A stretch of 59,494 nt of DNA. Origin: an uncultured bacterium. GTDB lineage: Bacteria; Fidelibacterota; Marinisomatia; Marinisomatales; UBA1611. The notes below the pieces were generated by a model. The model made no database searches. It was given only the letters and a program-made list of their open reading frames with translations, and had not been told where the DNA came from. The stretch spans positions 1 through 59,494 of the forward strand of contig CAZEER010000002.1 of the NCBI GenBank assembly GCA_964511215.1, read 5' to 3'. The first letter of the stretch is position 1; every line of letters starts with the position of its first letter. Position numbers and translations under genes: made by a program. Shown in pieces: positions 27,080 through 42,210 of this stretch.

Positions 27080-28333
27080 ATGAAAAGAATAATTTCGTTT
27101 TTTAAAAAATCCCCTATTGTAGTAGTAGCTTTTTTCGGTGTTTTAATGATAAGAATTTTGAAACCATTTTATATTATCCGTTTTGGTGTAATTGATATTG
27201 GAAGAATAGGTGGATCTTATTCTGGGAATATGTATTTAAGTGCAAAAGCACAAGGTAAATATAAAAGTAATTTTTTAGATTTTTTTTATTTTATAAAACA
27301 TACAAACCATTCTAATACTCAATGGGAGCGTATGTGGCATAGGGTTCTTCCTGTTTTTCCATTTACGACATTGGCTATATATTTAGAAAGAGTAAATAAA
27401 ATCTTTCCAGGATTTCAAATACATAAGATTCCTGAAATTGATATAGTACCTACTTTAGATGAATATCGCAAAAATATTAAAGATGATCTTTCTAAATTGT
27501 ATAATGATAAAATTGATTCAATAATTAAAACTAAAAAACCTAATTTGTATTTTACTCCTGAAGAAGAAAGTTATGCTGAAAAAGAGATGTTGAAATTTGG
27601 ACTATCTGCAGATGATAGTTTTATATGTTTTCATGCAAGGGATTCATCTTATTTAAAACAAGTTGTGGGAAGCTATAATTTTTCTTATCACGACTTTAGA
27701 GATTCAAATATAGATAACTATATTCAAGCTGTCGAAGGAATGATAAATAGAGGCTATCGTGCTTTTCGAATGGGCGCGATTGCTGAAAAACCTTTAAAGG
27801 AGAAAAATATAAAGTTAATTGATTATGCTTTTAATAAGAACAAATCTGACTTTTTGGATATATATCTAATATCAAAAAGCAAGTTTTTTATTTGTTCTGA
27901 TACTGGTTTATCATTTCCTGCTGAAGTTTTTAAAGTGCCAATAGTCTTTGTGAACTGGGCAGTAATTCTAAGATTACCCGTTTATGCACATAATTGTTTG
28001 ATAATTTTTAAGAAATTTTTTTCTAGAACTAAAAAAAGATTCCTAAGTTTTTCAGAAATGATGGATTTAGATCTTTTTACTGGGAAAGCAAATGAAGAAT
28101 TGTCCAACCAGAATTTAGAAGTAATTGAAAATACTCCGGATGAAATATTTTCTCTAGCAGTAGAAATGGATGAACGTTTAAGCGGGAAATGGACTGTGAA
28201 AGAGGATGATAAAATATTGCAAGAAAAATTTTGGAGTATATTTGGTCCTGGACAAATATTAAATACAGATATAAGAGTAGGGACTAAGTTTTTAAGGGAT
28301 AATAGATTTCTGCTTGAGAGTATTAAGGATTAA
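27080..28333 (+). CDS. hypothetical protein, possible GT-B-like transferase (resembles the TIGR04372-type family as I remember it)
   Basis: N-terminus LMIRILKPFYIIRFGVIDIGRIGG and central FICFHARDSSYL...DFRDSNIDNY. Assignment from memory only. Confidence 0.4.
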   Translation: MKRIISFFKKSPIVVVAFFGVLMIRILKPFYIIRFGVIDIGRIGGSYSGNMYLSAKAQGKYKSNFLDFFYFIKHTNHSNTQWERMWHRVLPVFPFTTLAIYLERVNKIFPGFQIHKIPEIDIVPTLDEYRKNIKDDLSKLYNDKIDSIIKTKKPNLYFTPEEESYAEKEMLKFGLSADDSFICFHARDSSYLKQVVGSYNFSYHDFRDSNIDNYIQAVEGMINRGYRAFRMGAIAEKPLKEKNIKLIDYAFNKNKSDFLDIYLISKSKFFICSDTGLSFPAEVFKVPIVFVNWAVILRLPVYAHNCLIIFKKFFSRTKKRFLSFSEMMDLDLFTGKANEELSNQNLEVIENTPDEIFSLAVEMDERLSGKWTVKEDDKILQEKFWSIFGPGQILNTDIRVGTKFLRDNRFLLESIKD

Positions 28334-30096
28334 TGAGAGCTTTAATATTTTTCAAATATATTATTAGAGAATTCCCAAATCTTTTGGTAGCGAGCTCTTT
28401 GATATTAATTCTGACAGGGATTATAGAAACTATAGCTCTCTTTTTTATTGCGCCAATTGTTGATCTTTTAATTTCCTCAGAATTGAATGAATCTAGTGTT
28501 ATAAGTCAAAAAATTATTTCCTTCCTGAGCTCAATCGGTCTTCCAAGTACAATTTGGGTTGTTTTTAGTGTTTATATACTTCTAAATATTATTAAGAGTG
28601 TATTTCAAATTTGTTCAAATTTTTTTATTCTAAAATTAAAATATGCATTATGTAAAGATATTACCTTAGGGGCATATGATGATTTTTTTAGCGGAGGCTG
28701 GAAATTTTTCAGAACAAATAAACAAGGTCATCTATTAAATACATTTCTTCGTGAAACGGCCATTGTTGGTGATGGTTTTGCTGGTATGGCCCGATTTGCA
28801 GCATCAGCATTTCAATTAATAATTTTCGTAATTGTGCCTTTTTATGTCTCTTGGGAAGTAATGTCTCTAAGCATATTATCTGCGATATTAATTGCTATTC
28901 CTTTATTACTTATTGGAAAAATTAGCCATTCACTCGGTGAAAAGAATACCTCAACCTCAAACGATTTAAGTCATTTTATTCAGGAATATTTTTCAGCAGC
29001 TAAATCTGTAATAGGATTTGCAAAACAAAAATCGAGTTTAAAAGGGTTAGAATCCGTTTATGATAAGCATATAGATGCAACACTCAAATCACAAACATTT
29101 ACTTCTGCAATTACTATTAGCTATAGTTCTTTAGGTTTACTGGGAATAATGGTTACTTTGTTATCAGCTCAATGGTTCTCCTTACCAATCGCAGAAACTT
29201 CAATTTTGGTTGTTGCTTTAATAAAAATAGTACCAATCATAGGATTTATTACAGGTGAAAAAAATTTGATGGATAATTCGTTCCCTAGTTATGAACAAAT
29301 TATGCGTCTAAGAGATGAAGCAAAAAAGGTTAGTTTTATTAATGGCGTAAAAAAATTTAGCGAGCTAAAAGATTCGATAATAATAAAGGATTTATCCTTT
29401 CATTATAATAATGATGAGAAAGTATTGAAAAATATTAATATAAAAATATCAAAAGGTGAAATGATAGCTCTAGTGGGAAAATCGGGATCAGGTAAAACAA
29501 CATTGGTTGATATACTAATGGGATTTAATGAACCATATAGTGGGGAAATAGTAATAGATGGCATTTCTATGAATGAATATTCTCAAAATTCAATCCGAAG
29601 AAAGATAGGATATGTTCCTCAAGATAGTACCTTATTTAATATGTCAGTTTTTGATAATCTAACTTGGGCCAAAAATGATGCGACACTTAAAGAAATTCAA
29701 AGAGCTTGTAAGTTAGCTCACGCAGATGAGTTTATAAATAATCTCCCAGATAAATACTTTACCTTAGTAGGTGATAGAGGAGTTAGGTTGTCAGGGGGGC
29801 AGTTACAGAGACTTGCATTAGCTAAAGCAATTATAAAAAAACCAGATATATTAATATTGGATGAAGCGACAAGCTCTCTTGATAGTGAGTCAGAAAAGAA
29901 AATTCAAAATGCAATAGAAAATATTTCAAAAGAATCAACATTAATTGTCATTGCCCACAGACTATCTACAATCATTAATGCAACTAATATTTATGTATTG
30001 AAGAAGGGGATGATAGATGAATACGGTAATTATGGGCAATTAAAAAGTAATAAAAGTACTTTTTATAATATGCTGGAAGCTCAGAAGTTTAGGTAG
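28333..30096 (+). CDS. ABC exporter, fused permease/ATPase (MsbA/PglK type)
   Basis: Six predicted TM helices. Walker A GKSGSGKTT, signature LSGGQLQR, Walker B ILILDEATS. Confidence 0.85.
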   Translation: MRALIFFKYIIREFPNLLVASSLILILTGIIETIALFFIAPIVDLLISSELNESSVISQKIISFLSSIGLPSTIWVVFSVYILLNIIKSVFQICSNFFILKLKYALCKDITLGAYDDFFSGGWKFFRTNKQGHLLNTFLRETAIVGDGFAGMARFAASAFQLIIFVIVPFYVSWEVMSLSILSAILIAIPLLLIGKISHSLGEKNTSTSNDLSHFIQEYFSAAKSVIGFAKQKSSLKGLESVYDKHIDATLKSQTFTSAITISYSSLGLLGIMVTLLSAQWFSLPIAETSILVVALIKIVPIIGFITGEKNLMDNSFPSYEQIMRLRDEAKKVSFINGVKKFSELKDSIIIKDLSFHYNNDEKVLKNINIKISKGEMIALVGKSGSGKTTLVDILMGFNEPYSGEIVIDGISMNEYSQNSIRRKIGYVPQDSTLFNMSVFDNLTWAKNDATLKEIQRACKLAHADEFINNLPDKYFTLVGDRGVRLSGGQLQRLALAKAIIKKPDILILDEATSSLDSESEKKIQNAIENISKESTLIVIAHRLSTIINATNIYVLKKGMIDEYGNYGQLKSNKSTFYNMLEAQKFR

Positions 30097-30205
30097 TCGG
30101 ATAAAAAAATTTCACATTATAGATTAAAAAATCAACTATTTTATAAAATGATTTCAATTTTTAAAGAGAATAGGTAAGAGATTGATTCTCAAATATATTT
30201 TTAGC

Positions 30206-30625
30206 ATGAAAACTTATATCTTTTTCTTCAGCCTTTTTTTTATTTCATGTGATGATTTACAATATTACGAAAAAATATATGGCATTTGGCATGGAAACTT
30301 TAATGATGAATCTCTTGAATTTAGATTCAAAAAAAACAATACTTGTGTATTGAAATTTTCAGATTTAAATACTGGTAAAGTCAAGATATTTAAAGGAAAC
30401 TTCGAGATTCAATCTTCTAAGAACCCTGTCCCGTTATCAATCAGGAACATTAATAACTTAGATCATCCCTTATATACTATTATTGAGTTTGAAGAAATTA
30501 ATATAATTAAATTAGCAATTTTTTCACCACGATGGAGATTGCGGCCTATTTCATTTGAAAGTGATAATCTTATGAGGCTGGAACGCGCTAATCTTAATTT
30601 AAGCCATTATGAAAAAATTAGGTAA
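30206..30625 (+). CDS. hypothetical lipoprotein
   Basis: MKTYIFFFSLFFISC lipobox-like signal. The ORF opens at TTG 30182; ATG 30206 is more plausible. Confidence 0.5.
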   Translation: MKTYIFFFSLFFISCDDLQYYEKIYGIWHGNFNDESLEFRFKKNNTCVLKFSDLNTGKVKIFKGNFEIQSSKNPVPLSIRNINNLDHPLYTIIEFEEINIIKLAIFSPRWRLRPISFESDNLMRLERANLNLSHYEKIR

Positions 30626-30652
30626 TCATTTAAAGAAAAAAGGAGAAAAGGA

Positions 30653-31333
30653 GTGTTTCAACCATTCGATAAATTTTTAGAAATCTCATCAATAAATATA
30701 CCTATATTAGAATTTGTTACTAATTTGCTAGCTTCTGCAATGCTATCGTTGATATTAAAAAATGTATATGTTCGATATGGAAAATGTTTATCAAACCGAA
30801 AGGCATTTGGTAATAATTTTATAATTATAACATTGACAACCATGTTAATTATTACTGTTGTGAAATCGTCTTTAGCATTATCATTAGGGCTTGTAGGTGC
30901 TTTATCAATAATAAGGTTTAGAGTTGCAATAAAAGAGCCAGAAGAACTTGCATATTTATTTTTAACTATTGCTATTGGTTTAGGTTTTGGTGCTGATCAA
31001 GGAGCTATTACAACCGTTGCATTTATAATTATTTGTTTGATTTTAGTTATTATTAGTAAAATGACTTATGTTGAGGATATAGAAAAAAATATTAGCTTAA
31101 CAATTTCTTCGGATAATCCAAAAAATGTTAATATCAAAAAAATTAAAGAAGTCTTAAGTACCCATTGCTCAGAAATAGATCTTAGACGCATAGATGAGAC
31201 AGAAGAAATTATAGAGGCATCTTTTTTAGTTGGGTTTAATGATCTCAACAGTCTAAATGAAGCCAAAATTAAATTACAAAAATTAGACAAGTCTTTAAAA
31301 CTTACTTTTTTGGATACAAATGGGCTTATATAA
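30653..31333 (+). CDS. DUF4956-family integral membrane protein
   Basis: GTG start after AAGGAG. SLGLVGALSIIRFRVAIKEPEELAYLF is the hallmark DUF4956 stretch; 4-5 TM helices. Confidence 0.7.
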   Translation: MFQPFDKFLEISSINIPILEFVTNLLASAMLSLILKNVYVRYGKCLSNRKAFGNNFIIITLTTMLIITVVKSSLALSLGLVGALSIIRFRVAIKEPEELAYLFLTIAIGLGFGADQGAITTVAFIIICLILVIISKMTYVEDIEKNISLTISSDNPKNVNIKKIKEVLSTHCSEIDLRRIDETEEIIEASFLVGFNDLNSLNEAKIKLQKLDKSLKLTFLDTNGLI

Positions 31334-34012
31334 ATGATAATTAAACATTCAGATAAAAACCACCTATTTGTTGATTGGTTTAGTTTTGTTTTTTCTAAAA
31401 ATAAACATAACAAAAAACGTGTAAAAGTTTATGTATTACTAATTTTTAGTGCTCTGATGTGTTTTTTTTTAGGGATAGCAATTGCCAAGGCAGGGCTTAT
31501 TGGAAAGTTGATAATTCCCAAAACAAATCATTTGATGGCTTACAGCAAGAATTATGTAAGTGGGCTTTTTTCAAAATCTGAAAATATAATGATTAATATA
31601 AAATTTGAGGACCTTCAAAAACTTCGAAAAAAAAGATATACAGCGATAAATAACCAAAAGTTAGTAACTGAAGCTGATGATTATGTACCTGGAGTTATTG
31701 ATTACAATAATCAAAGTGTAAATGCAAAACTTCGTTTGAAAGGAGATAATCTTGATCATCTGGAGGGAGAAAAATGGTCATTTAGAATCAAAATTCAAGG
31801 AGATCAAACAGTTTTTGGCATGAAAATTTTTTCAATTCATCATCCAAAAACTCGAAATTTTATACATGAATGGATTTTTCATCAATCACTAAAGTTAGAA
31901 GAGCTAATTGGTCTGCGATACAAATTTATTAATGTATCCTTAAATGGTAAAAACTTAGGAGTATATGCTTTAGAAGAGCATTTTGAAAAACGGTTAATTG
32001 AAAATAATAAACATAGAGAGGGGCCAATTATTCGATTTAATGAAAATTTATATTGGGATGAAAAAATTCAACAGGAAATTCCTTTTAATGATGGTCAAGG
32101 TGTAAAAACAAAAAACAGTGTAAGACGTAATGGTGTAGGTGAATATTTATCGAGTGAGATAACTACTTTTCAAGCAAAGCGTTGGCTTTCAGATTCCACG
32201 ATAGTTTTACATAATAAAGCTGTTCATTTATTAGAAGATTTTAGGCAAGGAAAATTAAAAACTAGTGATGTTTTTGACACCAAAAAATTGGCAAAATTCT
32301 TGGCTCTTACGGATGTAATGGGCGCGCATCATGCTGCTTATTGGCAAGGCCAAAGGTTCTACTATAACCCAATAATTTCAAGGCTCGAACCGATAGGCTT
32401 TGATGGAGATAGTGGCACTCCTATAAACTCATTGTGTGTAAACCTTGATATGCGAGAAATACAAATAGGTTCCAATGCAAAACTTGAATCAGAGAAAGAG
32501 CTTCCATATTTTAATTTTTTTGAAATGCTATTCAGCGATATTGCTTTCTATAATGAATATGTTAAATCGTTAGAAAAGTTTTCCCAATCAAAATTTTTGA
32601 ATAATCTTTTTCATCAAATTGATAAAGAATTAAAAAATAATTTGAATATTATTCATGGCGAGTTCCCAAATTTTTTGTTTTCAAGTTCAACATATTATAG
32701 GAATCAAGAATACATCAAGACAGTATTAAAGCCAGTCAAAGGTATCCATGCATATTGCAAAAATGGAAAAAACAACAATATAAAATTAGAGATAGGCAAT
32801 ATTCATATTTTGCCTATTCAAATTTTTAATATTTCATATAAGGATTCGCTCAATTTTTCTATAGAAGGACAGATTCTACAGGCAAAACACCCTTCAAAAC
32901 CTGTAAGTTTTAGTACTATTAGCCTTGAGTTTCCTTTAGGACCTAATTTTAAAAATAATATTGCTTCTAATTTAAAAGTTCATTACAGGGTACTTGGATC
33001 AAATTATGATATGGTGGAATTTGTTTATCCATGGGAGCAATCAAATAATGGAATAGCCCAAAATGATATAATGCGACAAAAGCCTAACGTTAATGAATTT
33101 GAATTTCTAAAAATAGATAATGAGCATAAAAAAATATTTTTTAAGAGTGGCAATTGGGTTATAAAGAAAAATTTAATTGTTCCACCAAATTATGAGCTAA
33201 TTGCTAACGATGGTGTTGGACTTAATTTGTTAGGTTTTACTAAAATAATTTCCTATTCGCCTCTATATTTTTCTGGTTCTGAAGATCGCCCAATCATAAT
33301 TAATTCTACAGATTCAAAAGGACAGGGTATTTTTGTCCTTGAAACCGGTAAAGTATCGATGCTGGAAAATGTTGTCTTTAGCAATTTGTCTGCACCATCA
33401 CACAATGGGTGGGAATTAACTGGATCTGTAACATTCTATGAATCCCCATTTCAAATGTATAATTGTAAATTTAAGGATAGTAGGTCAGAAGATGCTTTAA
33501 ATGCAGTCCGCTCTGAATTTAAAATTGATGGGTGTTCATTTGAAGGTTCTTACTCTGATGCATTTGATGCTGATTTTTCTAAAGGAGAGGTGAGAAATAC
33601 TATTTTTAAAAATTCAAAAAATGATGCCTTAGATGTCTCGGGTAGCGTCTTAGATATTTATGATATATTTGTATATGATTCGGGGGATAAGGGAGTGAGC
33701 ATAGGAGAGAATAGCAGCGTAGAGGCTAGCTTAATATTTATCAATGGAGCTCAGATTGGTATCGCAAGCAAAGATCAATCAAGTTTAATTTGCAATAATA
33801 TTGAGATTTCTAATTCAAAAGTTGGTTTAGCCTTATATCAAAAAAAGCCTGAATTTGGACCCTCTTCAATTAAAATGACACAATTATCAATGGAAAATGT
33901 TGGCATGCCATATTTTGTTGAGTCTCAATCAGAATTAATTTTGAATGGGCAGGTAATTGATTCTCATAAGCAAAATTTTAAAAAATTTATTTTATCCTTA
34001 CAAAATATTTAA
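31334..34012 (+). CDS. CotH-family (atypical kinase fold) protein with an N-terminal membrane anchor and C-terminal parallel beta-helix repeats
   Basis: TM VYVLLIFSALMCFFLGIAIA. CotH-like core AKLRLKGDNLDHLEGEKWSFRIKI...VSLNGKNLGVYALEEHF. C-terminal 250 aa show repeated N/D-x-x-F/I-x-N/D-S turns typical of pectin-lyase-fold beta-helices. Confidence 0.7.
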   Translation: MIIKHSDKNHLFVDWFSFVFSKNKHNKKRVKVYVLLIFSALMCFFLGIAIAKAGLIGKLIIPKTNHLMAYSKNYVSGLFSKSENIMINIKFEDLQKLRKKRYTAINNQKLVTEADDYVPGVIDYNNQSVNAKLRLKGDNLDHLEGEKWSFRIKIQGDQTVFGMKIFSIHHPKTRNFIHEWIFHQSLKLEELIGLRYKFINVSLNGKNLGVYALEEHFEKRLIENNKHREGPIIRFNENLYWDEKIQQEIPFNDGQGVKTKNSVRRNGVGEYLSSEITTFQAKRWLSDSTIVLHNKAVHLLEDFRQGKLKTSDVFDTKKLAKFLALTDVMGAHHAAYWQGQRFYYNPIISRLEPIGFDGDSGTPINSLCVNLDMREIQIGSNAKLESEKELPYFNFFEMLFSDIAFYNEYVKSLEKFSQSKFLNNLFHQIDKELKNNLNIIHGEFPNFLFSSSTYYRNQEYIKTVLKPVKGIHAYCKNGKNNNIKLEIGNIHILPIQIFNISYKDSLNFSIEGQILQAKHPSKPVSFSTISLEFPLGPNFKNNIASNLKVHYRVLGSNYDMVEFVYPWEQSNNGIAQNDIMRQKPNVNEFEFLKIDNEHKKIFFKSGNWVIKKNLIVPPNYELIANDGVGLNLLGFTKIISYSPLYFSGSEDRPIIINSTDSKGQGIFVLETGKVSMLENVVFSNLSAPSHNGWELTGSVTFYESPFQMYNCKFKDSRSEDALNAVRSEFKIDGCSFEGSYSDAFDADFSKGEVRNTIFKNSKNDALDVSGSVLDIYDIFVYDSGDKGVSIGENSSVEASLIFINGAQIGIASKDQSSLICNNIEISNSKVGLALYQKKPEFGPSSIKMTQLSMENVGMPYFVESQSELILNGQVIDSHKQNFKKFILSLQNI

Positions 34013-34036
34013 AATAGATATCATAAAATTTTAAAT

Positions 34037-34720
34037 ATGAGCATTAAAGATTACAGATATGAGAGGAAGTTTTTAGTTACACACTTAACAGAGAATGAAA
34101 TAGAATCCATTATAAAAGGTCACATCGCACTTTTTTCAGAAATCTATAGTTCGAGGTATATCAATAATATTTATTTTGATTCTATTAATTTGCAAAATTA
34201 TTTTGATTCTGTAGATGGTATAAGTGATCGTACAAAAATACGTATAAGGTGGTATGGAAAATTATTTGGTGTAATTTCCAACCCTATTCTTGAATTTAAA
34301 GTTAAAGCAGGTCAACTAAATAAAAAGAGCTCATTTATTTTAAAGTCATTTAGACTTGATTGTGATTTTAAAATCTCATCTATTTTTGAAACAATAGACT
34401 CATCTGACATGCCTAAAAATATTAAACAAAAGATAAAATTATATCAGCCAGTGCTTTTAAACCGCTATCGCCGTAAATATTTCCAATCTTTTGATAAAAA
34501 TTATAGAATAACAATTGATAAAAATTTATCTTATTATAAAATAAATAAACATACAAATAATTTCTTAAACAAATCGGTAGATCATTTAAGTAAAATTGTT
34601 GAATTAAAATATCATTCAAGCAAAGATTCTTACGCGGAAGCTATAGTAAGCAGTTTACCATTTAGATTGAATAAAAATTCAAAATATGTTAATGGACTTG
34701 AATCAAAAACTTTTTTTTGA
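34037..34720 (+). CDS. VTC-domain (polyphosphate-polymerase-like, CYTH/triphosphate-tunnel fold) protein
   Basis: N-terminal YERKFLV (ExK tunnel motif). Alternating charged strands KIRIRWY, LEFKVK, RITIDKN, VELKYH. Confidence 0.7.
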   Translation: MSIKDYRYERKFLVTHLTENEIESIIKGHIALFSEIYSSRYINNIYFDSINLQNYFDSVDGISDRTKIRIRWYGKLFGVISNPILEFKVKAGQLNKKSSFILKSFRLDCDFKISSIFETIDSSDMPKNIKQKIKLYQPVLLNRYRRKYFQSFDKNYRITIDKNLSYYKINKHTNNFLNKSVDHLSKIVELKYHSSKDSYAEAIVSSLPFRLNKNSKYVNGLESKTFF

Positions 34721-34764: not shown

Positions 34765-35751
34765 ATGCTAGATAATAAAACTATACTTGTAACAGGTGGG
34801 ACAGGCTCATTTGGGAAGAGGTTTATTAAAAACACTTTCCTAAATTATAAACCGAAAGAAGTTATTGTTTACAGTCGTGATGAGCTTAAGCAATTTGAGA
34901 TGCGTGATTTATTCCCAACTGAGAACTTTCCAATCAAATATTTTATAGGTGATGTCAGGGATAAAGAGAGGATATATCGGATAGCAAATGGAGTTGATTG
35001 TATAATTCATGCAGCAGCCTTAAAGCAAGTACCAACTGCTGAATCTAATCCATTTGAAACTGTCAAAACTAATATTAATGGTGCACAAAATGTTATAGAG
35101 GCCGCCTTGGAAAATAATGTAAAACGTGTTGTTGCGCTTTCAACTGATAAGGCATGTAGTCCTATAAACTTATATGGTGCAACTAAATTGGCATCAGATA
35201 AAATGTTTGCTGCCGCAAATCATTGGCAAGGTAGCCATAAAACTATATTTTCTGTTGTGAGATATGGTAATGTGGTTGGTAGCCGAGGTAGTGTTATTCC
35301 GTTTTTTTTGAAAAAGAAAAGCGAAGGAGTTATACCTATAACTGATAAGCGTATGACTCGATTCTGGATCACACTAGATCAAGGAGTGCAGTTTGTTTTT
35401 GATTCCTTACAAAGAATGCAAGGTGGTGAACTTTTTGTCCCAAAAATCCCCAGTATGAACATAATGGACCTTGTAGAGGCTATTGCTCCAGAGGCTGAGA
35501 TTGAAATTATTGGTATACGACCTGGAGAAAAACTCCATGAATTAATGATATCTTCTGATGACGCTGTCAATACAGTTGAATATGAAAATTATTTTGTTAT
35601 TCAACCATCTCATCCGTGGTGGGATAATTTAGATTATATCAAGATTAGTGGTGGTAAACCAGTAAATGATGGGTATAGTTATTCAAGTGGCACTAATTCA
35701 GAATGGCTCACAATTCCTGAGATAAAACAAATGATTAAAAATGAGTTATGA
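34765..35751 (+). CDS. pseB: UDP-N-acetylglucosamine 4,6-dehydratase (inverting)
   Basis: AGGAG SD. ILVTGGTGSFGK, YSRDELKQ, YGATKLASDK; 328 aa collinear with PseB/FlaA1. Confidence 0.85.
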   Translation: MLDNKTILVTGGTGSFGKRFIKNTFLNYKPKEVIVYSRDELKQFEMRDLFPTENFPIKYFIGDVRDKERIYRIANGVDCIIHAAALKQVPTAESNPFETVKTNINGAQNVIEAALENNVKRVVALSTDKACSPINLYGATKLASDKMFAAANHWQGSHKTIFSVVRYGNVVGSRGSVIPFFLKKKSEGVIPITDKRMTRFWITLDQGVQFVFDSLQRMQGGELFVPKIPSMNIMDLVEAIAPEAEIEIIGIRPGEKLHELMISSDDAVNTVEYENYFVIQPSHPWWDNLDYIKISGGKPVNDGYSYSSGTNSEWLTIPEIKQMIKNEL

Positions 35752-36923
35752 AAAAAATAATTCCATATGGGTTACATAAGTTAGATAGAGATGATATTGA
35801 TTCGGTGATAGAGATCTTGGCAAGTGGTGGTAGCATTACTCAAGGACAGGAGGTTGAGAAATTTGGGAGAGCTATAGCTGATTATTCTGGTGCAAAATAT
35901 GGTGTAGCAGTTTCTAATGGCACCGCAGCCTTACATCTTTCAGTAGCCGCACTAGATATTGGTGAGGGTGATGAAATTTTAACAACACCAATTACATTTT
36001 GTGCAACAGCTAATGCTGCTTTATATCAGGGTGCAGATGTGAAATTTGTTGATGTAGATCAGAATACAATAAATTTGGATATTAGTTTAATTGAGGAGAA
36101 GATAACTGAAAAAACAAAAGCAATTATGCCTGTAGATTTTCGCGGACACCCGGCAAACCTGCCTGAAATTAAAAACCTTGCTGATAAATATAATATTGCA
36201 GTAATAGAAGATGGTTCACATTCTATAGGCTCAAACTATATTGACAATGGGAAAGAGCATAGTTGTGGAGATGGTGTTCATGCAGATCTTTGTACATTCA
36301 GCTTTCATCCTGTAAAACATATAACTACTGGTGAAGGTGGTGCCATTGTAACAAATAACAAAGATCTATTTAATAAAATTAATCTATTACGGAAACATGG
36401 TATAGATCGAAGAAATGAAATGTTTAACCAAGCCGATAGAGTTGGGCCTTGGATTTATGAAATGGAGTATCTGGGGTTTAATTATAGAATAACAGATTTT
36501 CAAGCTGCTTTAGGCATAAGTCAACTAAAAAAAATTGATGAAAATAAAACACGTCGTCGAAATATTGTTGAATTTTATAATGAAAAGTTGCTAAGTATTG
36601 ATGAACTGATTTTGCCTTTTGAAGATGAGAATGTTGATAGTAATTTTCATTTATACGTTCTTCAAGTAAAGAATAATCCTCGGTTTGACAGGTATGACCT
36701 TTTTGAAAAACTTCAAAATCTTCACTATGCACCTATGGTTCATTATATTCCAGTCCATTTATTAAAATACTACAAAAAACGCTATGGTACGAAGAGGGGT
36801 GATTTTCCTAATGCAGAAGAATTCTATGATCGTGCGATTTCAATTCCGTTATATCCCTCCTTAACTGATTCGGAAGTTGAGCAGGTAGTATCTGATATAG
36901 TAAATATTGTTAAATCATATTAA
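35748..36923 (+). CDS. pseC: UDP-4-amino-4,6-dideoxy-N-acetyl-beta-L-altrosamine transaminase
   Basis: IPYGLHKLDRDDIDSV, SNGTAALHL, FSFHPVKHITTGEGG. ATGA overlap with pseB. Confidence 0.8.
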   Translation: MKKIIPYGLHKLDRDDIDSVIEILASGGSITQGQEVEKFGRAIADYSGAKYGVAVSNGTAALHLSVAALDIGEGDEILTTPITFCATANAALYQGADVKFVDVDQNTINLDISLIEEKITEKTKAIMPVDFRGHPANLPEIKNLADKYNIAVIEDGSHSIGSNYIDNGKEHSCGDGVHADLCTFSFHPVKHITTGEGGAIVTNNKDLFNKINLLRKHGIDRRNEMFNQADRVGPWIYEMEYLGFNYRITDFQAALGISQLKKIDENKTRRRNIVEFYNEKLLSIDELILPFEDENVDSNFHLYVLQVKNNPRFDRYDLFEKLQNLHYAPMVHYIPVHLLKYYKKRYGTKRGDFPNAEEFYDRAISIPLYPSLTDSEVEQVVSDIVNIVKSY

Positions 36924-37797
36924 AATAAAAGTTACTATTCCAAAAAAACTGGTTCTGGGGACAGCTCAGTTTGGGAATGATTATGGAATCACTAATATTA
37001 ATGGGAAGCCCAATAAAAGTGAAGTTTTTAAAATAATTACAAGTGCATGGGAAAAAGGTGTACGGAAATTTGATACTGCGTCCTCTTATGGATCAGAATC
37101 CTTTATTGGTGAATTTATTGTTGCGAATGGTCTAGAAAATAATCAGCTAGATGTTTTAACAAAAATCCCCAGTATAAGTGATAAAAATGATTATAGGACA
37201 ATAATAAAAAAAAACATAGAAGATTCCTTAAAATATCTTAAGTGCAATATAGATGTATTATTTTTTCATAGTCCTAAAGATTCAAAGTTATTGTTGCACG
37301 ACCCTATATTTTTTGAAACATTATTGAATGAATATCCTATAACTAGTTTTGGTTCTTCGGTTTATGACCCAAGTCAGATACAAATGCTTTCGGATTGTAA
37401 ATTTGACTTAGCATTCCAATTTCCTTTTAATGTTTTGGATAGAAGATTTGAAGATATTAACATGTTTGAAGGGAAAAGATATGCCAGGTCGATTTTTCTT
37501 CAAGGTCTTCTCTTACCATCGAATCCTTTACGTGTTAGTGCCCCAAAAGAACTAATAAAGTTAAAAAAAGATTATGATCTTTTTTTGAAGAAACACAACT
37601 TTAATGCGATGAGTATTGCAATCCATTTTGTTATGAATAATACTTGTAATGACTATTTTTTAGTTGGTGTAGAATCAGTAACCCAGCTCGAGGAAATATT
37701 TAATTGTGAAATGCAAGAAATGAATTATGATAATAAGGTAAAATCCTTTATTTCTGAGATTGATAAAATTTGGCTTGATCCAAGAAAATGGTGCTAA
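36907..37797 (+). CDS. aldo/keto reductase family oxidoreductase
   Basis: LVLGTAQFGNDYG, FDTASSYG. Start uncertain (TTG 36907). Confidence 0.7.
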   Translation: MLNHIKIKVTIPKKLVLGTAQFGNDYGITNINGKPNKSEVFKIITSAWEKGVRKFDTASSYGSESFIGEFIVANGLENNQLDVLTKIPSISDKNDYRTIIKKNIEDSLKYLKCNIDVLFFHSPKDSKLLLHDPIFFETLLNEYPITSFGSSVYDPSQIQMLSDCKFDLAFQFPFNVLDRRFEDINMFEGKRYARSIFLQGLLLPSNPLRVSAPKELIKLKKDYDLFLKKHNFNAMSIAIHFVMNNTCNDYFLVGVESVTQLEEIFNCEMQEMNYDNKVKSFISEIDKIWLDPRKWC

Positions 37798-38381
37798 ATA
37801 ATAAAATTTCATTTGAAGTACATGATTTGGAATGTGAATTTAGAGCGTTGACTAAGGATGATATTTGCAAAGATTATATAAATGGTTTGAAGGAAGAAGA
37901 AGGAGGAGGATATATCCAGAATATTCCCTCTGGATTGAGTGTTGAGACTCAGAAAAAATATATTAAATCCATACTTTTAAGTAAGCATAATGCTATTAAT
38001 GGTATTTTCGTGGATGGGAAACTAGTGGGTACAGCTGGGATCCAAACTGATACTAATTTTAACAAAGTTATTGATAAGCCTTTAGTCTCAATTGCAACAA
38101 TCGGAATCTTAATTTTCAATAGTGAATATCGTGGACTAGGATTAGGAAGTATACTTGTTTGGGCATCAATAATCTTGGCAGATAATTGTATAGGAGTTCA
38201 GTGGTTTGGAGCAGCAATGGATAAGTGCAATTTAAAATCTTTAAGATCCTTTTTATCATGTGGTTTTAGAAAAATTCATGAAAGAGGTAATCACGTAAGA
38301 GTGTTGCTAGAATTTCAGGAATTAATTAAGCCCTGTTCTATAAAAAATATAACAATCAATGGTGAAAAATTAAATGAATAG
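37788..38381 (+). CDS. GNAT-family N-acetyltransferase
   Basis: Motif A YRGLGLGSILV. Confidence 0.65.
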   Translation: MVLNNKISFEVHDLECEFRALTKDDICKDYINGLKEEEGGGYIQNIPSGLSVETQKKYIKSILLSKHNAINGIFVDGKLVGTAGIQTDTNFNKVIDKPLVSIATIGILIFNSEYRGLGLGSILVWASIILADNCIGVQWFGAAMDKCNLKSLRSFLSCGFRKIHERGNHVRVLLEFQELIKPCSIKNITINGEKLNE

Positions 38382-38434
38382 CGGAAAATATATTTGTCAA
38401 GAGTAACCAACCAGATTATCAAAAAATTAATCTT

Positions 38435-40459: not shown

Positions 40460-40662
40460 AAAAAAGAAAAAATAAAGATTTGCAATATTATCTAGATATT
40501 ATTGATCAAATTGAAAAGGTGAGGACAAAAAATAATGTCAATTGGATGGATCTACTCCGACTCGCATTTATTCATGCTCCAGATGAAGCAAAATTATTAA
40601 TGAAGAAAATTGATCATGACGATAATCAGATTTCGAGATTAGTAAAAAAGCTTTCAGAATAA
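40456..40662 (+). CDS. hypothetical small protein (68 aa)
   Basis: TTGA overlap with the upstream gene and a tight fit between neighbours. No family recognised. Confidence 0.4.
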   Translation: MKKRKNKDLQYYLDIIDQIEKVRTKNNVNWMDLLRLAFIHAPDEAKLLMKKIDHDDNQISRLVKKLSE

Positions 40663-40675
40663 TTTTATAGAATTA

Positions 40676-41167
40676 ATGATTAAGACTGATAATTCTTTTA
40701 AGCTCAGAAATGTATATAACTCAGATAAAAATCAATTATTTGAGTGGGCGAATGATATTGAAACAAGAAAGTGGTCTTTCCATTCTGAGGCTATTACGGT
40801 ATTAGAACATAAAAAATGGTTTAATAGTAAATATATTGATAAAAATGTGATATTATGGATATTTGAATACGAAAACACTTCTTCAGGGTTAGTGAGGTTA
40901 GAAAAATACAATGGGAAAGTTATTCTTCACTATCAAATAGCTCCAGAAATGAGAGGGAAAAAATTGGCGAGTGTTATGCTAGGGGAAGCATTAAAAAAAT
41001 TAAAAAAATGCTGGTTGGAAAATGAAGTGTATGCATTTACATATCCTGAGAATTTAGCATCAATTAAATCTTTGAAAAAAGCTGGCTTCAATCTCTTTAG
41101 TGATGATGGAGGCAAACATTGTTATCTTTATAGATGGAGTAACAAGATTAAAATAGAACAAAAATGA
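40676..41167 (+). CDS. pseH: GNAT N-acetyltransferase, PseH-like
   Basis: LFEWANDIETRKWSF...EHKKWF N-terminal pattern and MRGKKLASVML motif A. Position directly before pseI. Confidence 0.6.
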   Translation: MIKTDNSFKLRNVYNSDKNQLFEWANDIETRKWSFHSEAITVLEHKKWFNSKYIDKNVILWIFEYENTSSGLVRLEKYNGKVILHYQIAPEMRGKKLASVMLGEALKKLKKCWLENEVYAFTYPENLASIKSLKKAGFNLFSDDGGKHCYLYRWSNKIKIEQK

Positions 41168-42210
41168 TACACATTGGTAATCAAAAAATAGGTCTAGATC
41201 AGAAACCTTTTGTGATAGCGGAAATGTCAGGGAATCATAATCAATCATTGGAAAAAGCTTTGAAAATTACCGAGGCAATAGCTAGGTGTGGAGCAGATGC
41301 AATCAAACTTCAAACTTATACTGCAGATACATTGACGCTTGATATAAAAGAGAATGAATTTCTAATAAAAGATGAAAAAAGTATTTGGAAAGGAAAGGCG
41401 CTATATGATTTATATAAGGGTGCCTACACACCGTGGGATTGGCATGAGCCTATTATGCATAAAGCAAATGATCTTGGTCTAATGTGTTTTAGTACTCCAT
41501 TTGATGAAACAGCAGTAGATTTTCTTGAGGATTTAAACGTTCCGGCCTACAAAATTTCATCTTTTGAAAATATACATTTACCCTTAATTAAAAAAGTTGT
41601 TTCAACAGGAAAACCTATTATTATATCAACTGGTATGGCTAGTCTTTCTGATATTGAAGAAATAACAAATATTTTAAAATATGGTTCAATTGATAACTTT
41701 GTATTATTGAAATGTTCAAGTACATATCCTGCTGCCACTAAAGACAGCAATGTAATTACTATACCCTATATGCGAAAACTATTTTCATGTGAGGTTGGTT
41801 TATCAGATCATACTTTAGGTCTTGGTGCTTCTATAGCTGCTATAGCTCATGGTGCGACTGTAATTGAAAAACACTTTACCTTATCAAGAGATGATGGAGG
41901 TGTAGATGCTGCTTTTTCAATGGAGCCTGAAGAAATGAAACAATTAATTACTGAATTAAATCGTGCTTGGGAGTCTCTTGGTGATGTTAATTTTGGTCCA
42001 ACAGAAAATGAAAAAAACTCACTGCAGTTTCGACGATCCTTGTACATTTCAGAGGATATAAAAAATGGTGAACTACTAAATGAAAAAAACCTAAGAATAA
42101 TTAGGCCGGGTTTAGGTCTCCATCCAAAGTTTTTTGATATTATTTTGGGTATGAAGGTAAACCGTGATGTGAAGAAAGGAACCCCAGTTAGTTGGGATTT
42201 AATCAGGTAA
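41164..42210 (+). CDS. pseI: pseudaminic acid synthase (NeuB family with C-terminal SAF domain)
   Basis: PFVIAEMSGNHNQSLEKA, IKLQTYTADTLT, YKISSFE, GLSDHTLG, IEKHFTLSR. ATGA overlap. Confidence 0.85.
   Translation: MIHIGNQKIGLDQKPFVIAEMSGNHNQSLEKALKITEAIARCGADAIKLQTYTADTLTLDIKENEFLIKDEKSIWKGKALYDLYKGAYTPWDWHEPIMHKANDLGLMCFSTPFDETAVDFLEDLNVPAYKISSFENIHLPLIKKVVSTGKPIIISTGMASLSDIEEITNILKYGSIDNFVLLKCSSTYPAATKDSNVITIPYMRKLFSCEVGLSDHTLGLGASIAAIAHGATVIEKHFTLSRDDGGVDAAFSMEPEEMKQLITELNRAWESLGDVNFGPTENEKNSLQFRRSLYISEDIKNGELLNEKNLRIIRPGLGLHPKFFDIILGMKVNRDVKKGTPVSWDLIR

What the first reader, a model, noticed from the sequence alone, without database searches (positions are those of the whole stretch)
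30182..34720. Uncharacterised DUF4956 / CotH-kinase / VTC-domain trio embedded in a glycan locus
Three abutting genes encode the trio. The first is a DUF4956 polytopic membrane protein (GALSIIRFR hallmark). The second is an 892-aa membrane-anchored CotH-family atypical-kinase-fold protein whose C-terminal quarter is a parallel beta-helix, a carbohydrate-binding/processing fold. The third is a VTC/CYTH triphosphate-tunnel protein (YERKFLV, KIRIRWY, LEFKVK, VELKYH). A small lipoprotein gene precedes them. In eukaryotes the VTC tunnel domain polymerises polyphosphate and threads it through a membrane subunit. CotH proteins are protein kinases in Bacillus spore coats. To my knowledge, no function has been shown for the bacterial VTC + DUF4956 + CotH association. 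Here it lies between an MsbA-type exporter and the pseudaminic-acid genes, on the same strand, with gaps of 0-44 nt. This suggests it modifies the exported glycan or its carrier, for example by phosphorylation or (poly)phosphate attachment, or builds a phosphate polymer at the envelope. It is the best candidate in this window for an undescribed system.
Basis: partly seen in the sequence, partly recalled or inferred. Interest (0 to 1): 0.8.

Follow-up and report, generated by a model that had tools for sequence, protein, structure and literature searches.

The report
Membrane-spanning VTC–DUF4956–CotH envelope phosphate module
Three adjacent genes in a marine bacterium's sugar-coat locus form a widespread, functionally untested module, with one enzyme inside the cell, one membrane protein and one kinase-like enzyme outside, that probably adds phosphate to surface sugars where there is no ATP.

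Summary
The ORFs lie at the stated coordinates and match DUF4956, CotH and VTC above Pfam's thresholds. The structure model confirms a CotH kinase fold followed by a parallel beta-helix.

The trio is a conserved module. Among 40 VTC loci from named genomes with long flanks, 38 carry VTC, DUF4956 and a CotH. They span many bacterial phyla and archaea.

Topology is uniform. VTC is cytoplasmic, DUF4956 is polytopic, and CotH is extracytoplasmic in 68 of 69 cases.

  - The association is already published next to Gram-positive Pel loci, with mutant phenotypes in Streptococcus intermedius.
  - DUF4956 is MgtC-like with an ACT-like domain, not Vtc1-like.
  - The window's CotH subfamily has His in place of the catalytic Asp.
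  - Glycan linkage is frequent but not universal.
- **New here:**
  - The trio occurs outside Pel loci.
  - A conserved lipoprotein precedes it in some loci.
  - An extracytoplasmic metallophosphoesterase is a frequent fourth partner.
  - The closest relative shares a six-gene block that includes the ABC exporter.

My best mechanism is inferred, not shown. VTC makes polyphosphate, DUF4956 passes it outward, and CotH/beta-helix transfers phosphate onto the glycan. Confidence is about 0.35. I rate it a new variant of a known but uncharacterised kind, interest 0.65.

The parts
27080..28333 (+). TIGR04372-family glycosyltransferase. It is the first gene of a six-gene block conserved in the closest relative.
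   Evidence: NCBIfam TIGR04372: E=1.1e-62, 211 bits against a cut-off of 45. It is 44% identical to the first gene of L088, in the same order.
28333..30096 (+). Half-size-fused ABC exporter (TM domain plus ATPase) of the HepA/MsbA/PglK type. It is the probable flippase or exporter of the lipid-linked glycan, and it is syntenic with the module in the closest relative.
   Evidence: Pfam ABC_membrane + ABC_tran. NCBIfam best hits are HepA_fam_ABC, MsbA and PglK, all below their equivalog cut-offs. It is 58% identical to the syntenic gene in L088.
30206..30625 (+). Small accessory lipoprotein (139 aa from ATG 30206; the ORF opens at TTG 30182). It has a signal peptide with a lipobox-like FISC and a conserved FSPRWRLRPI motif.
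   Evidence: No Pfam or NCBIfam family. Homologues lie directly upstream of DUF4956 in L026, L053 and L029 (E=4e-33 to 6e-25) and in L088 (47% identity). The sequence was read.
30653..31333 (+). DUF4956 membrane protein. It has a five-helix MgtC-like bundle (residues about 18-142, N-terminus outside, C-terminus inside) and a cytoplasmic ACT-like beta-alpha-beta-beta-alpha-beta domain (146-221). The invariant core is VKSSLALSLGLVGALSI(I/V)RFR.A.K.PEE.
   Evidence: - Pfam PF16316 E=3e-18.
- 55-61% identity across phyla, with 55 invariant columns.
- AF2 model, pLDDT 75.8.
- Foldseek ACT-domain hits, TM-score 0.6-0.69 normalised to the target.
- Weak MgtC hit in 29 of 29 members.
- N-out topology inferred from signal-peptide fusions in Anaerolineales.
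- Strong Shine-Dalgarno before GTG 30653.
31334..34012 (+). 892-aa membrane-anchored extracytoplasmic protein.
- TM anchor: nt 31415-31489.
- CotH kinase fold: nt 31571-32728.
- Beta-sandwich: nt 32744-33022.
- Parallel beta-helix: nt 33101-33958.
- Active site is non-canonical. His333 (nt 32330-32332) replaces the catalytic Asp, while the metal-binding Asp357 (nt 32402-32404) is kept.
   Evidence: - Pfam CotH 25.6 bits.
- More than 1188 full-length homologues at 41-58% identity.
- AF2 model, pLDDT 85.
- Foldseek matches 5JDA at E=2e-11 and beta-helix glycanases, tailspikes and lyases.
- MAFFT and hhalign mapping of the catalytic residues.
- H333 is present in 32 of 34 members, and D357 is invariant.
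- 14 invariant charged residues lie in the beta-helix.
- Codons checked.
34037..34720 (+). Stand-alone cytoplasmic VTC-type triphosphate-tunnel protein (227 aa). It has no SPX domain and no TM domain. The invariant tunnel residues are R7 E9 R10 K11, R65 K67 R69 R71, E86 K88, Y144 R146, R157, E189 K191, R210 and S215 K216.
   Evidence: - Pfam PF09359 E=1.5e-28, near full length.
- Alignment A1.
- A PDB profile search hits only Vtc2, Vtc3 and Vtc4. RxRWY aligns to Vtc4 R264/R266 and ExK to K281.
- No hydrophobic segment in 78 of 79 family members.
- Family size is 7088 50%-identity clusters.
34765..42210 (+). Context, not part of the module: pseudaminic-acid pathway genes. These are PseB 34765-35751, PseC 35748-36923, an acetyltransferase, a CMP-transferase fusion 38435-40459 and PseI 41164-42210.
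   Evidence: NCBIfam PseB 523.7 bits against a cut-off of 407.75, PseC 443.4 against 423.5, PseI 478 against 340.25. Pfam families.

Best explanation
This is a self-contained module that spans the cytoplasmic membrane and carries out phosphate chemistry on the cell envelope, outside the cytoplasm.

**Steps shown by sequence, structure prediction and comparative genomics**
1. A soluble cytoplasmic VTC-type triphosphate-tunnel enzyme retains every tunnel residue that could be mapped onto yeast Vtc4.
2. A polytopic DUF4956 protein (MgtC-like five-helix bundle) places its ACT-like domain and its invariant basic loops on the cytoplasmic side.
3. A membrane-anchored, extracytoplasmic CotH-fold protein is fused to a glycan-type beta-helix.
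4. The three genes travel together in about 95% of loci. They are frequently embedded among genes that build, flip, polymerise or O-acetylate surface polysaccharides.

**Steps inferred**
1. VTC polymerises phosphate from ATP into polyphosphate, as Vtc4 does.
2. An oligomer of DUF4956 receives the chain at its positively charged cytoplasmic face and conducts it across the membrane. This would be functionally analogous to the Vtc1/3/4 channel but not homologous to it.
3. In the ATP-free periplasm, the CotH/beta-helix enzyme uses that chain as phosphoryl (or polyphosphoryl) donor. The acceptor would be the pseudaminic-acid-containing glycan flipped by the adjacent ABC exporter. The beta-helix would hold the glycan.
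4. In other loci a secreted metallophosphoesterase trims the polymer.
For: - **Family and residue evidence.**
  - VTC matches Pfam at E=1.5e-28.
  - Its only relatives among solved structures are Vtc2, Vtc3 and Vtc4.
  - R69/R71 align with Vtc4 R264/R266, whose mutation together with E426N inactivates VTC (PMC9911596).
- **Topology.**
  - 78 of 79 VTC proteins lack any hydrophobic segment.
  - 68 of 68 DUF4956 proteins are multi-TM.
  - 50 of 51 CotH/beta-helix proteins and 18 of 18 canonical CotH partners have an N-terminal signal or anchor.
  - Signal-peptide fusions fix the DUF4956 N-terminus outside, so the ACT-like domain and the basic loops are inside.
- **Obligate association.**
  - 38 of 40 long-flank loci carry all three families, in several gene orders.
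  - They span many bacterial phyla and archaea.
- **A fourth partner.** An extracytoplasmic calcineurin-like metallophosphoesterase occurs in 21 of 80 loci. From memory, this parallels the lumenal polyphosphatase Ppn2 of the yeast vacuole.
- **Glycan linkage.**
  - All 7 Pfam-annotated neighbourhoods of close CotH homologues are polysaccharide loci.
  - About 26% of 137 nearest-neighbour ORFs are GT, Wzx, Wzy, sugar-nucleotide or O-acyltransferase genes.
  - MBOAT and AlgX-like post-export modifiers recur.
  - The closest relative shares a six-gene block that includes the ABC exporter.
- **The CotH partner looks glycan-directed.**
  - The beta-helix resembles glycanases, lyases and tailspikes and has 14 invariant charged residues.
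  - Canonical CotH partners carry CHB_HEX, PKD or LTD modules.
- **Genetics elsewhere.** Deleting the DUF4956 or CotH gene alters Pel polysaccharide level and aggregation in S. intermedius.
- **Logic.** A kinase-fold enzyme outside the cytoplasm has no ATP, and a co-inherited cytoplasmic polyP polymerase plus a membrane protein would supply a donor.
Against: - No biochemical activity is known for any bacterial member of the three families.
- In S. intermedius the VTC deletion had no aggregation phenotype. The DUF4956 and CotH deletions changed Pel abundance in opposite directions. A simple linear donor pathway does not predict either result.
- DUF4956 shows no similarity to the Vtc1/3/4 channel, and its channel role is conjecture.
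- MgtC relatives and ACT domains are usually regulatory.
- The window's CotH subfamily lacks the canonical catalytic Asp (His333). It could therefore be inactive as a kinase or do different chemistry.
- Sequence alone cannot separate a polyP polymerase from a triphosphatase within the tunnel fold. The bacterial family also keeps a Glu (E9) reminiscent of the CYTH ExExK motif.
- 16 of 40 long loci show no glycan genes within 10 kb by my HMMs.
Confidence: 0.35

Rival explanations
1. The module is a surface polyphosphate system. It exists to make and export polyphosphate itself as an envelope or extracellular polymer (a 'pseudo-capsule'). The CotH/beta-helix protein and the metallophosphoesterase would anchor, size or remodel that polymer rather than phosphorylate a glycan.
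For: - The trio is self-contained and occurs in 16 of 40 long loci with no detected glycan genes nearby.
- It also occurs in archaea.
- An extracytoplasmic phosphoesterase partner is common.
- Surface polyP is documented in gonococci, and the words 'export' and 'transport' do not occur in that paper's main text.
- The VTC tunnel residues are intact.
Against: - Close homologues of the window's CotH are always in polysaccharide loci.
- CotH partners carry glycan-type modules: beta-helix, CHB_HEX, PKD.
- Pel phenotypes are seen in S. intermedius.
- This model assigns no clear role to a kinase fold.
Confidence: 0.2
2. The module is regulatory. DUF4956 (MgtC-like bundle plus ACT-like ligand-binding domain) and VTC would sense cytoplasmic phosphate, ATP or polyP status. 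They would signal across the membrane to tune production of the surface polysaccharide, with CotH as an effector kinase or pseudokinase.
For: - The MgtC relationship is weak but consistent, and the C-terminal domain is ACT-like.
- MgtC is known as a regulator of the F-ATPase and of phosphate signalling (as summarised in PMC12345266).
- In S. intermedius the deletions change the amount of Pel, up for DUF4956 and down for CotH, rather than abolishing it.
- The catalytic Asp is lost in the window's CotH subfamily.
Against: - Full conservation of the catalytic tunnel residues in VTC (32 invariant columns) argues for catalysis rather than sensing.
- The extracytoplasmic metallophosphoesterase partner and the heavily conserved charged face of the beta-helix also suggest enzymes with substrates outside the cell.
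- The module occurs with many unrelated glycan pathways (Wzx/Wzy, ABC, synthase), which would be unusual for a dedicated regulator.
Confidence: 0.15
3. The 892-aa protein is mainly a glycan-processing enzyme. The beta-helix would act as a lyase, hydrolase or epimerase that trims or matures the exported polymer, with the CotH-like domain as a non-catalytic scaffold. VTC and DUF4956 would be functionally separate neighbours.
For: - Foldseek matches the beta-helix to GH87, GH28, PL6 and phage depolymerases.
- 14 invariant Asp, Lys and Glu residues lie in the beta-helix.
- Polysaccharide loci often encode a dedicated glycanase, and DUF4832/SIR_1591 is an active hydrolase in the Pel-linked version.
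- The catalytic Asp is replaced.
Against: - The CotH domain keeps invariant D357, K147, E214/E215, R134/K136/D138 and H333, which is too conserved for a dead scaffold.
- Loci with canonical CotH and no beta-helix still keep VTC + DUF4956. The conserved partnership is therefore with the CotH domain, not with the beta-helix.
Confidence: 0.1
4. The CotH protein is an extracytoplasmic protein kinase. It would phosphorylate surface or secreted proteins (S-layer, adhesins), as CotH phosphorylates spore-coat proteins, using ATP from an unknown source.
For: The only characterised CotH proteins are Ser/Thr protein kinases (PMC7821199). Canonical CotH partners keep D228 and D251.
Against: - No ATP is available outside the cytoplasm.
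- No conserved candidate protein substrate appears among recurrent neighbours.
- The associated domains are glycan-type.
- The window's subfamily lacks the catalytic Asp.
Confidence: 0.08

Closest known systems
Gram-positive Pel-associated accessory cluster (cotH, 'polyphosphate polymerase', DUF4956, DUF4832), e.g. S. intermedius SIR_1591-1594 (bioRxiv 10.1101/768473 = PMC7112168; PMC12345266)
   Same: - It has the same three protein families side by side.
- It is contiguous with an exopolysaccharide locus.
- CotH is predicted to be secreted.
- DUF4956 is described as an MgtC-like TM domain plus ACT.
- The mechanism is unknown.
   Different: - The window has no pel genes and no DUF4832.
- The host is diderm (Wza-like exporter, KdsB).
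- The glycan pathway is ABC-exporter-linked and pseudaminic-acid-containing.
- CotH is fused to a beta-helix instead of FN3, and it has His in place of the catalytic Asp.
- A lipoprotein accompanies the trio.
- The S. intermedius authors reported not finding the trio's synteny outside the Pel locus. The census here shows it widely outside Pel loci.
Eukaryotic VTC complex (Vtc4 catalytic TTM domain with the Vtc1/Vtc3/Vtc4 TM channel; PDB 3G3Q, 8I6V; PMC9911596)
   Same: - The tunnel domain belongs to the same Pfam family.
- The mapped catalytic residues are conserved: equivalents of R264, R266 and K281.
- A cytoplasmic catalytic domain is paired with a membrane component.
- A lumenal or external metallophosphatase accompanies it in many loci.
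   Different: - The bacterial protein is a stand-alone 227-aa domain without SPX or TM segments.
- The membrane partner is DUF4956 (MgtC-like plus ACT-like), not Vtc1/DUF202.
- There is no evidence of inositol-pyrophosphate control.
- A CotH partner has no counterpart in the yeast complex.
- PolyP synthesis is untested.
Bacillus CotH spore-coat Ser/Thr kinase (PDB 5JD9/5JDA; D228 and D251 essential)
   Same: - The fold is shared (Foldseek E=2e-11).
- The metal-binding Asp is conserved (D251 = D357).
- The conserved Lys/Arg and Glu positions of the N-lobe are retained.
   Different: - The catalytic Asp228 is replaced by His333.
- The protein is extracytoplasmic and membrane-anchored.
- It is fused to a beta-sandwich and a beta-helix.
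- There is no spore context.
- The Pfam score is barely above threshold.
MgtC/SapB/YhiD family membrane proteins
   Same: The architecture is shared: a five-helix N-terminal bundle plus a small cytoplasmic ACT-like domain. A weak Pfam MgtC hit occurs in all 29 members tested, and JGI annotates some members as YhiD.
   Different: The hits fall below the Pfam threshold (E=0.003-0.03). DUF4956 has its own invariant motif (GALSI(I/V)RFR) and an obligate VTC/CotH neighbourhood. MgtC is not known to conduct polymers.
Secretory-pathway glycan kinases Fam20B and POMK, and periplasmic phosphotransferases LpxT and EptA (from memory; functional analogies only)
   Same: These are kinase-fold or transferase enzymes that add phosphate groups to glycans or lipids outside the cytosol. 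The bacterial examples use non-ATP donors.
   Different: No homology was tested here. Those systems use imported ATP or lipid-linked donors, not polyphosphate.

Membership tests
VTC / Vtc4-type triphosphate-tunnel polyP polymerase (PF09359) | Profile match above the curated threshold over the whole domain | tested here: met
   100.4 bits against a cut-off of 23, covering profile positions 2-233 of 235. CYTH PF01928 is not hit.
VTC / Vtc4-type triphosphate-tunnel polyP polymerase (PF09359) | Conserved basic and acidic tunnel residues, including equivalents of Vtc4 R264, R266, K281 and E426 | tested here: met
   - R69/R71 align to the RLRWY motif of Vtc4.
- E86/K88 align to ERK281.
- E189/K191 align to the Vtc2 MEIK motif.
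- All are invariant in 34 sequences.
- The E426 mapping is indirect.
- Residue numbers for K281 are from memory. R264, R266 and E426 are from PMC9911596.
VTC / Vtc4-type triphosphate-tunnel polyP polymerase (PF09359) | Fusion to SPX and TM domains, and assembly with Vtc1-type (DUF202) subunits | tested here: not met
   The protein is a 227-aa stand-alone domain with no hydrophobic segment. The partner is DUF4956, which shows no Vtc1 similarity.
VTC / Vtc4-type triphosphate-tunnel polyP polymerase (PF09359) | Synthesis of polyP from ATP | not testable with these tools
   This needs an enzyme assay. No report for a bacterial member was found.
CotH kinase (PF08757) | CotH atypical kinase fold | tested here: met
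   - Pfam 25.6 bits against 23.8.
- Foldseek to 5JDA/5JD9 at E=2e-11, TM-score 0.63 normalised to the target.
- hhalign to the canonical CotH profile gives probability 96%, E=4e-9.
CotH kinase (PF08757) | Catalytic Asp (B. subtilis D228) | tested here: not met
   - It aligns to His333 by both MAFFT and hhalign.
- His occurs in 32 of 34 subfamily members and Asn in 2.
- The position is invariant Asp in 16 canonical CotH sequences.
CotH kinase (PF08757) | Metal-binding Asp (B. subtilis D251) | tested here: met
   It aligns to D357, which is invariant in 34 of 34 members.
CotH kinase (PF08757) | ATP-dependent Ser/Thr phosphorylation of protein substrates | not testable with these tools
   This needs biochemistry. 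The predicted extracytoplasmic location makes ATP use doubtful.
DUF4956 (PF16316) | Profile match above threshold, with the hallmark GALSI(I/V)RFR core | tested here: met
   66.5 bits against a cut-off of 30.6. The core is invariant in 29 sequences.
MgtC/SapB family (PF02308) | Profile match above the gathering threshold | tested here: not met
   15.4 bits against a cut-off of 31.4. The hit is weak but present in 29 of 29 members over the TM bundle. This points to a distant relationship only.
Pel-associated cotH/PPP/DUF4956/DUF4832 accessory cluster | The three families adjacent and co-oriented | tested here: met
Pel-associated cotH/PPP/DUF4956/DUF4832 accessory cluster | Contiguity with pelDEADAFG and presence of DUF4832 | tested here: not met
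   No Pel or DUF4832 family appears among the window ORFs scanned. None appears among the 25 most frequent families of 137 neighbour ORFs.

The most novel reading that the evidence does not exclude
The module would be the prokaryotic counterpart of the eukaryotic VTC machine. It would be a polyphosphate synthase-translocase built from non-homologous membrane parts (MgtC-like DUF4956), delivering polyphosphate to the outside of the cytoplasmic membrane. There polyphosphate would serve as an ATP-independent phosphoryl donor for a CotH-fold transferase, possibly through a phospho-His333 intermediate, that phosphorylates or polyphosphorylates surface glycans. That would establish polyP as an extracytoplasmic energy and phosphate currency in bacteria and archaea. 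It would also define a new class of glycan modification.
Probability: 0.25. Interest if true: 0.9.

Novelty: new variant of a known kind. Interest (0 to 1): 0.65.

Why it matters
- **Energy outside the cell.** Bacteria have no ATP outside the cytoplasm, and how they power or supply phosphate chemistry there is only known for lipid-linked donors. This module pairs a Vtc4-like enzyme with a membrane protein and an external kinase fold. It is widespread: at least 413 species in the genome scan and thousands of sequence clusters. That makes the question directly testable.
- **Unexplained observations.** If the model holds, it could explain how polyP reaches the cell surface, which the gonococcal pseudo-capsule paper does not address. 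It would also give the first function for bacterial VTC and DUF4956 proteins and for non-sporulating CotH proteins. And it would add a new anionic modification to capsules, biofilm matrices and, given the locus here, marine bacterial surface glycans that shape phage and grazer interactions.
- **Value if the model fails.** The census corrects the published impression that the trio is confined to Pel loci. It also defines subfamilies (Asp versus His active site) and extra partners (metallophosphoesterase, lipoprotein) for experimental design.

Tried and rejected
- **PDB sequence searches.**
  - Single-sequence searches for CotH and DUF4956 found nothing.
  - The CotH profile also found nothing.
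  - Only fold search recovered CotH.
- **DUF4956 against the Vtc1/Vtc4 channel.**
  - The Foldseek top 50 are ACT or ferredoxin-like domains only, and no hit reached E <= 0.001.
  - The DUF4956 profile against the PDB gave only noise.
  - I therefore rejected homology to the VTC channel.
- **Host identification failed.**
  - The window has no tRNA genes.
  - The best genome-collection match to VTC is only 54% identical.
  - An LdpA-like gene hinted at cyanobacteria, but it scores far below the NCBIfam cut-off, so I dropped that idea.
- **Nguyen et al. 2016 (CotH structure paper) is not held**. Catalytic residues were taken from PMC7821199 and from a B. subtilis sequence recalled from memory and checked by position.
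- **Anti-phage defence system:** no PADLOC hits, so rejected.
- **Promoter and terminator scan:** counts are at background level. This is uninformative beyond showing no terminator inside the block.
- **First census under-counted CotH.** My CotH/beta-helix HMM missed canonical CotH proteins, which made eight loci look like DUF4956+VTC pairs. A Pfam scan and a canonical-CotH HMM corrected this.
- **The per-locus glycan count is conservative.** It used home-made HMMs, and the Wzx model in particular recruited nothing.

Full report
**1. The observation**

Profile searches recover the three families above Pfam's curated thresholds:
- DUF4956: 66.5 bits against a cut-off of 30.6.
- VTC: 100.4 bits against 23, nearly full length.
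- CotH: 25.6 bits against 23.8, so it passes only narrowly.

NCBIfam has no model for any of them.

An AlphaFold model of the 892-aa protein, built on 34 homologues, has pLDDT 85.2. It shows:
- an N-terminal membrane helix;
- a domain whose best PDB match is the B. cereus CotH kinase (E=2e-11, TM-score 0.63 normalised to the target);
- a beta-sandwich;
- a C-terminal parallel beta-helix.

The beta-helix matches GH87 and GH28 glycanases, PL6 lyases, NosD and phage tailspike depolymerases.

The flanks are as described. Upstream is a HepA/MsbA/PglK-like ABC exporter. Downstream, PseB, PseC and PseI score above NCBIfam equivalog cut-offs.

The whole 59-kb window is one co-oriented surface-polysaccharide island. 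It carries a Wza-like exporter, a Wzz-like protein, heptose genes, many sugar-nucleotide enzymes and KdsB. The host is therefore a diderm bacterium. It comes from marine metagenomes, and I could not name it.

**2. The trio is a conserved module**

Each protein has many homologues:
- The 880-aa CotH/beta-helix architecture has more than 1188 homologues at 41-58% full-length identity. They occur in KSB1, Poribacteria, Anaerolineae, Planctomycetota, Thermotogota and archaea.
- DUF4956 is 55-61% identical across phyla, with 55 invariant columns.
- A profile of the VTC protein finds 7088 50%-identity clusters. The best 150 are all stand-alone proteins of 222-277 aa.

A scan of one genome per species with the VTC alignment gave 413 species hits, and 80 loci were fetched. 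In those loci I called ORFs and searched them with HMMs built from my alignments.

Eight loci at first looked like DUF4956+VTC pairs. They turned out to have a canonical CotH adjacent, carrying LTD + CHB_HEX or PKD modules. After that correction, 38 of 40 loci with at least 4.5 kb on both sides carry VTC + DUF4956 + a CotH.

Several gene orders occur among the 51 complete trios scored at that stage:

| Gene order | Loci |
|---|---|
| DUF4956-CotH-VTC | 26 |
| CotH-DUF4956-VTC | 17 |
| DUF4956-VTC-CotH | 5 |
| Other orders | 3 |

Selection, not just shared ancestry of one operon, is therefore likely to maintain the association.

**3. Anatomy and topology**

*VTC.* The alignment shows the alternating basic and acidic invariant residues expected of a triphosphate tunnel.
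- Its only relatives among solved structures are Vtc2, Vtc3 and Vtc4.
- R69/R71 align with the RLRWY motif of Vtc4, and E86/K88 with ERK.
- The R264A/R266A/E426N mutant of Vtc4 is the published catalytically impaired form (PMC9911596).

*DUF4956.* The model (pLDDT 75.8) has five helices followed by a beta-alpha-beta-beta-alpha-beta domain.
- That domain's only structural matches are ACT or ferredoxin-like domains.
- There is no match to the VTC channel.
- All 29 members tested give a weak MgtC hit over the helical bundle. This agrees with the description of the S. intermedius protein.

*Topology* is strikingly uniform:
- 78 of 79 VTC proteins have no hydrophobic segment.
- 68 of 68 DUF4956 proteins are polytopic.
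- 50 of 51 CotH/beta-helix proteins and 18 of 18 canonical CotH partners have an N-terminal signal or anchor.

In Anaerolineales, DUF4956 is fused behind a cleavable signal peptide and a lectin-like domain. This places the start of the bundle outside. With five helices, the ACT-like domain and the invariant basic loops (LSNRK 46-50, RFRxxIK 88-94) are then inside, next to VTC.

**4. The CotH active site is not canonical**

I used a B. subtilis CotH sequence recalled from memory. It is 362 aa and has Asp at exactly the published positions 228 and 251. I added 15 canonical CotH sequences from the fetched loci.

In that canonical set, D228 and D251 are among only five invariant columns. Both MAFFT and profile-profile alignment (probability 96%, E=4e-9) give the same mapping onto the window's protein:
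- D251 maps to the invariant D357.
- D228 maps to His333.

The subfamily has His at this position in 32 of 34 members and Asn in 2. Other N-lobe and catalytic-loop positions remain invariant: R134, K136, D138, K147, E214, E215, D327, R341 and Y343.

The domain is therefore under strong constraint, but it is unlikely to use the textbook kinase mechanism. The beta-helix carries 14 invariant Asp, Lys and Glu residues. That suggests a catalytic site or a highly specific binding site.

**5. Context and extra partners**

*Glycan linkage.*
- All seven Pfam-annotated neighbourhoods of window-type CotH homologues are polysaccharide loci:
  - the window itself;
  - Anaerolineaceae, with Wzx, Wzy and GT4;
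  - KSB1, with GT2 and GT4;
  - L088;
  - L089 and L090, with GTs plus ATP-sulfurylase and sulfotransferase;
  - L091.
- Among 137 nearest-neighbour ORFs of 39 loci, the counts are 14 GT1/GT4, 8 GT2, 4 Wzx, 3 Wzy, 3 sugar dehydratases and 3 O-acyltransferases.
- With my own iterated HMMs, 24 of 40 long loci have at least one such gene within 10 kb and 14 have at least two, but 16 have none.

Linkage is therefore frequent, not universal. The 16 of 40 figure is conservative, because my Wzx model recruited nothing.

*Recurrent partners.* Clustering all neighbour ORFs revealed a fourth partner. It is an extracytoplasmic, often C-terminally anchored calcineurin-like metallophosphoesterase, found in 21 of 80 loci and usually beside the CotH/beta-helix gene. 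The window has no copy. MBOAT and AlgX-like O-acetylation pairs also recur.

That relative, L088, shares a six-gene block with the window at 44-59% amino-acid identity: TIGR04372 glycosyltransferase, ABC exporter, lipoprotein, DUF4956, CotH, VTC.

**6. What is already known**

- The cluster cotH + 'polyphosphate polymerase' + DUF4956 + DUF4832 was described downstream of pelDEADAFG in streptococci, clostridia and bifidobacteria.
- In S. intermedius, deleting the DUF4956 gene raised Pel and deleting the CotH gene lowered it. Both reduced aggregation by more than 50% in artificial sputum medium. Deleting the VTC gene gave no aggregation phenotype. The authors also stated that they could not find this synteny outside the Pel locus.
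- C. perfringens NELoc-2 has VTC, a 'tubulin/FtsZ GTPase'-annotated membrane protein and CotH next to a chitin-synthase-like gene.
- No paper in the searchable library reports an enzymatic activity for any bacterial member.

The trio is thus a known but uncharacterised kind. The window's version differs from the described one in several ways:
- it has no pel genes;
- the host is diderm;
- the glycan pathway is ABC-linked and contains pseudaminic acid;
- CotH is fused to a beta-helix;
- the active site has His in place of the catalytic Asp;
- a lipoprotein accompanies the trio.

**7. Mechanism**

What is shown is a three-part system spanning the membrane. A catalytically intact Vtc4-like tunnel enzyme sits inside, and a kinase-fold/glycan-fold enzyme sits outside, where ATP is absent. 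The system is inherited as a unit and is often placed among genes that act on exported polysaccharide.

My inference is as follows (confidence about 0.35):
1. VTC makes polyphosphate.
2. DUF4956 conducts it outward.
3. The external enzyme transfers phosphate from it to the glycan that the adjacent ABC exporter flips.

The metallophosphoesterase partner and documented surface polyP in gonococci fit extracytoplasmic polyP chemistry.

The main counter-evidence:
- the S. intermedius genetics;
- the regulatory flavour of MgtC and ACT domains;
- the lost catalytic Asp;
- the loci without glycan genes.

Rival explanations are a surface-polyP export system, a regulatory module, a glycanase with a scaffold domain, and a surface protein kinase. 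I have scored them separately.

**8. Verdict**

- The finding is real and the family calls are right.
- The module is widespread, mechanistically unexplained and experimentally tractable.
- I rate it a new variant of a known (uncharacterised) kind, interest 0.65.

Noticed in passing
L020, L046, L060, L072, L080 (about 9.2-17.4 kb in each locus): Bacteroidota loci carry two CotH paralogues in one cluster. One is a canonical CotH (CHB_HEX_C + CotH, catalytic Asp kept). The other is a CotH/beta-helix protein (His variant). A Wzy_C-like membrane protein lies between them and a metallophosphoesterase follows.
   Followed up: partly
L049:7423-8823, L057:8584-9966, L059:8612-9955, L087:8516-9967: In Anaerolineales, DUF4956 is fused behind a cleavable signal peptide and a 3-keto-disaccharide-hydrolase/DUF1080 lectin-like domain. 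This fixes the N-terminus of the DUF4956 bundle outside the cell.
   Followed up: partly
21 of 80 loci, e.g. L027:8799-9977, L013:9070-9963, L020:16301-17365, L090:13803-14702: A divergent, signal-peptide-bearing calcineurin-like metallophosphoesterase is a recurrent fourth gene of the module. It often has a C-terminal TM anchor. The window has no copy.
   Followed up: partly
L010:8914-15580: This is the one long locus where VTC lacks both DUF4956 and CotH. VTC is instead flanked by a CYTH-domain protein and a 1579-aa NosD-like beta-helix protein with a type IX secretion sorting domain.
   Followed up: no
L012:3810-12391: This Gammaproteobacteria locus has two CotH/beta-helix-type genes and VTC but no DUF4956. 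A PMT_2 (GT-C) membrane protein occupies the upstream position, and a Sulfatase/phosphodiesterase-family gene lies downstream.
   Followed up: no
L089:2605-5990 and L090:16633-19991: The module sits next to ATP-sulfurylase and sulfotransferase genes, so it lies in loci for sulfated polysaccharides. This suggests it is one of several anionic-modification options.
   Followed up: no
L088:3216-3389: The closest relative of the window has a 57-aa PseB fragment (55% identical over 47 residues to the window's PseB) between the ABC exporter and the lipoprotein gene. It looks like a rearrangement scar within the island.
   Followed up: no
window 38435-40459: A 674-aa fusion joins a CMP-sugar cytidylyltransferase domain (CTP_transf_3, PseF-like) to a class-III aminotransferase (glutamate-1-semialdehyde-aminomutase-like). 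It lies within the pseudaminic-acid gene set and suggests a modified nonulosonic acid.
   Followed up: no
window 56576-57595: This Fe-S protein has an LdpA_C domain. It resembles the cyanobacterial clock protein LdpA but scores far below the NCBIfam cut-off (157 against 450), so it does not identify the host.
   Followed up: partly
window 14453-17367: An APH-family phosphotransferase (546 aa) is followed by a split transketolase (N-terminal and pyrimidine-binding halves as separate genes). They sit inside the glycan island, next to heptose-pathway genes.
   Followed up: no
window 39262-39936 (- strand): A 224-aa antisense ORF lies wholly inside the 38435-40459 gene. It has no support and is probably spurious.
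   Followed up: no
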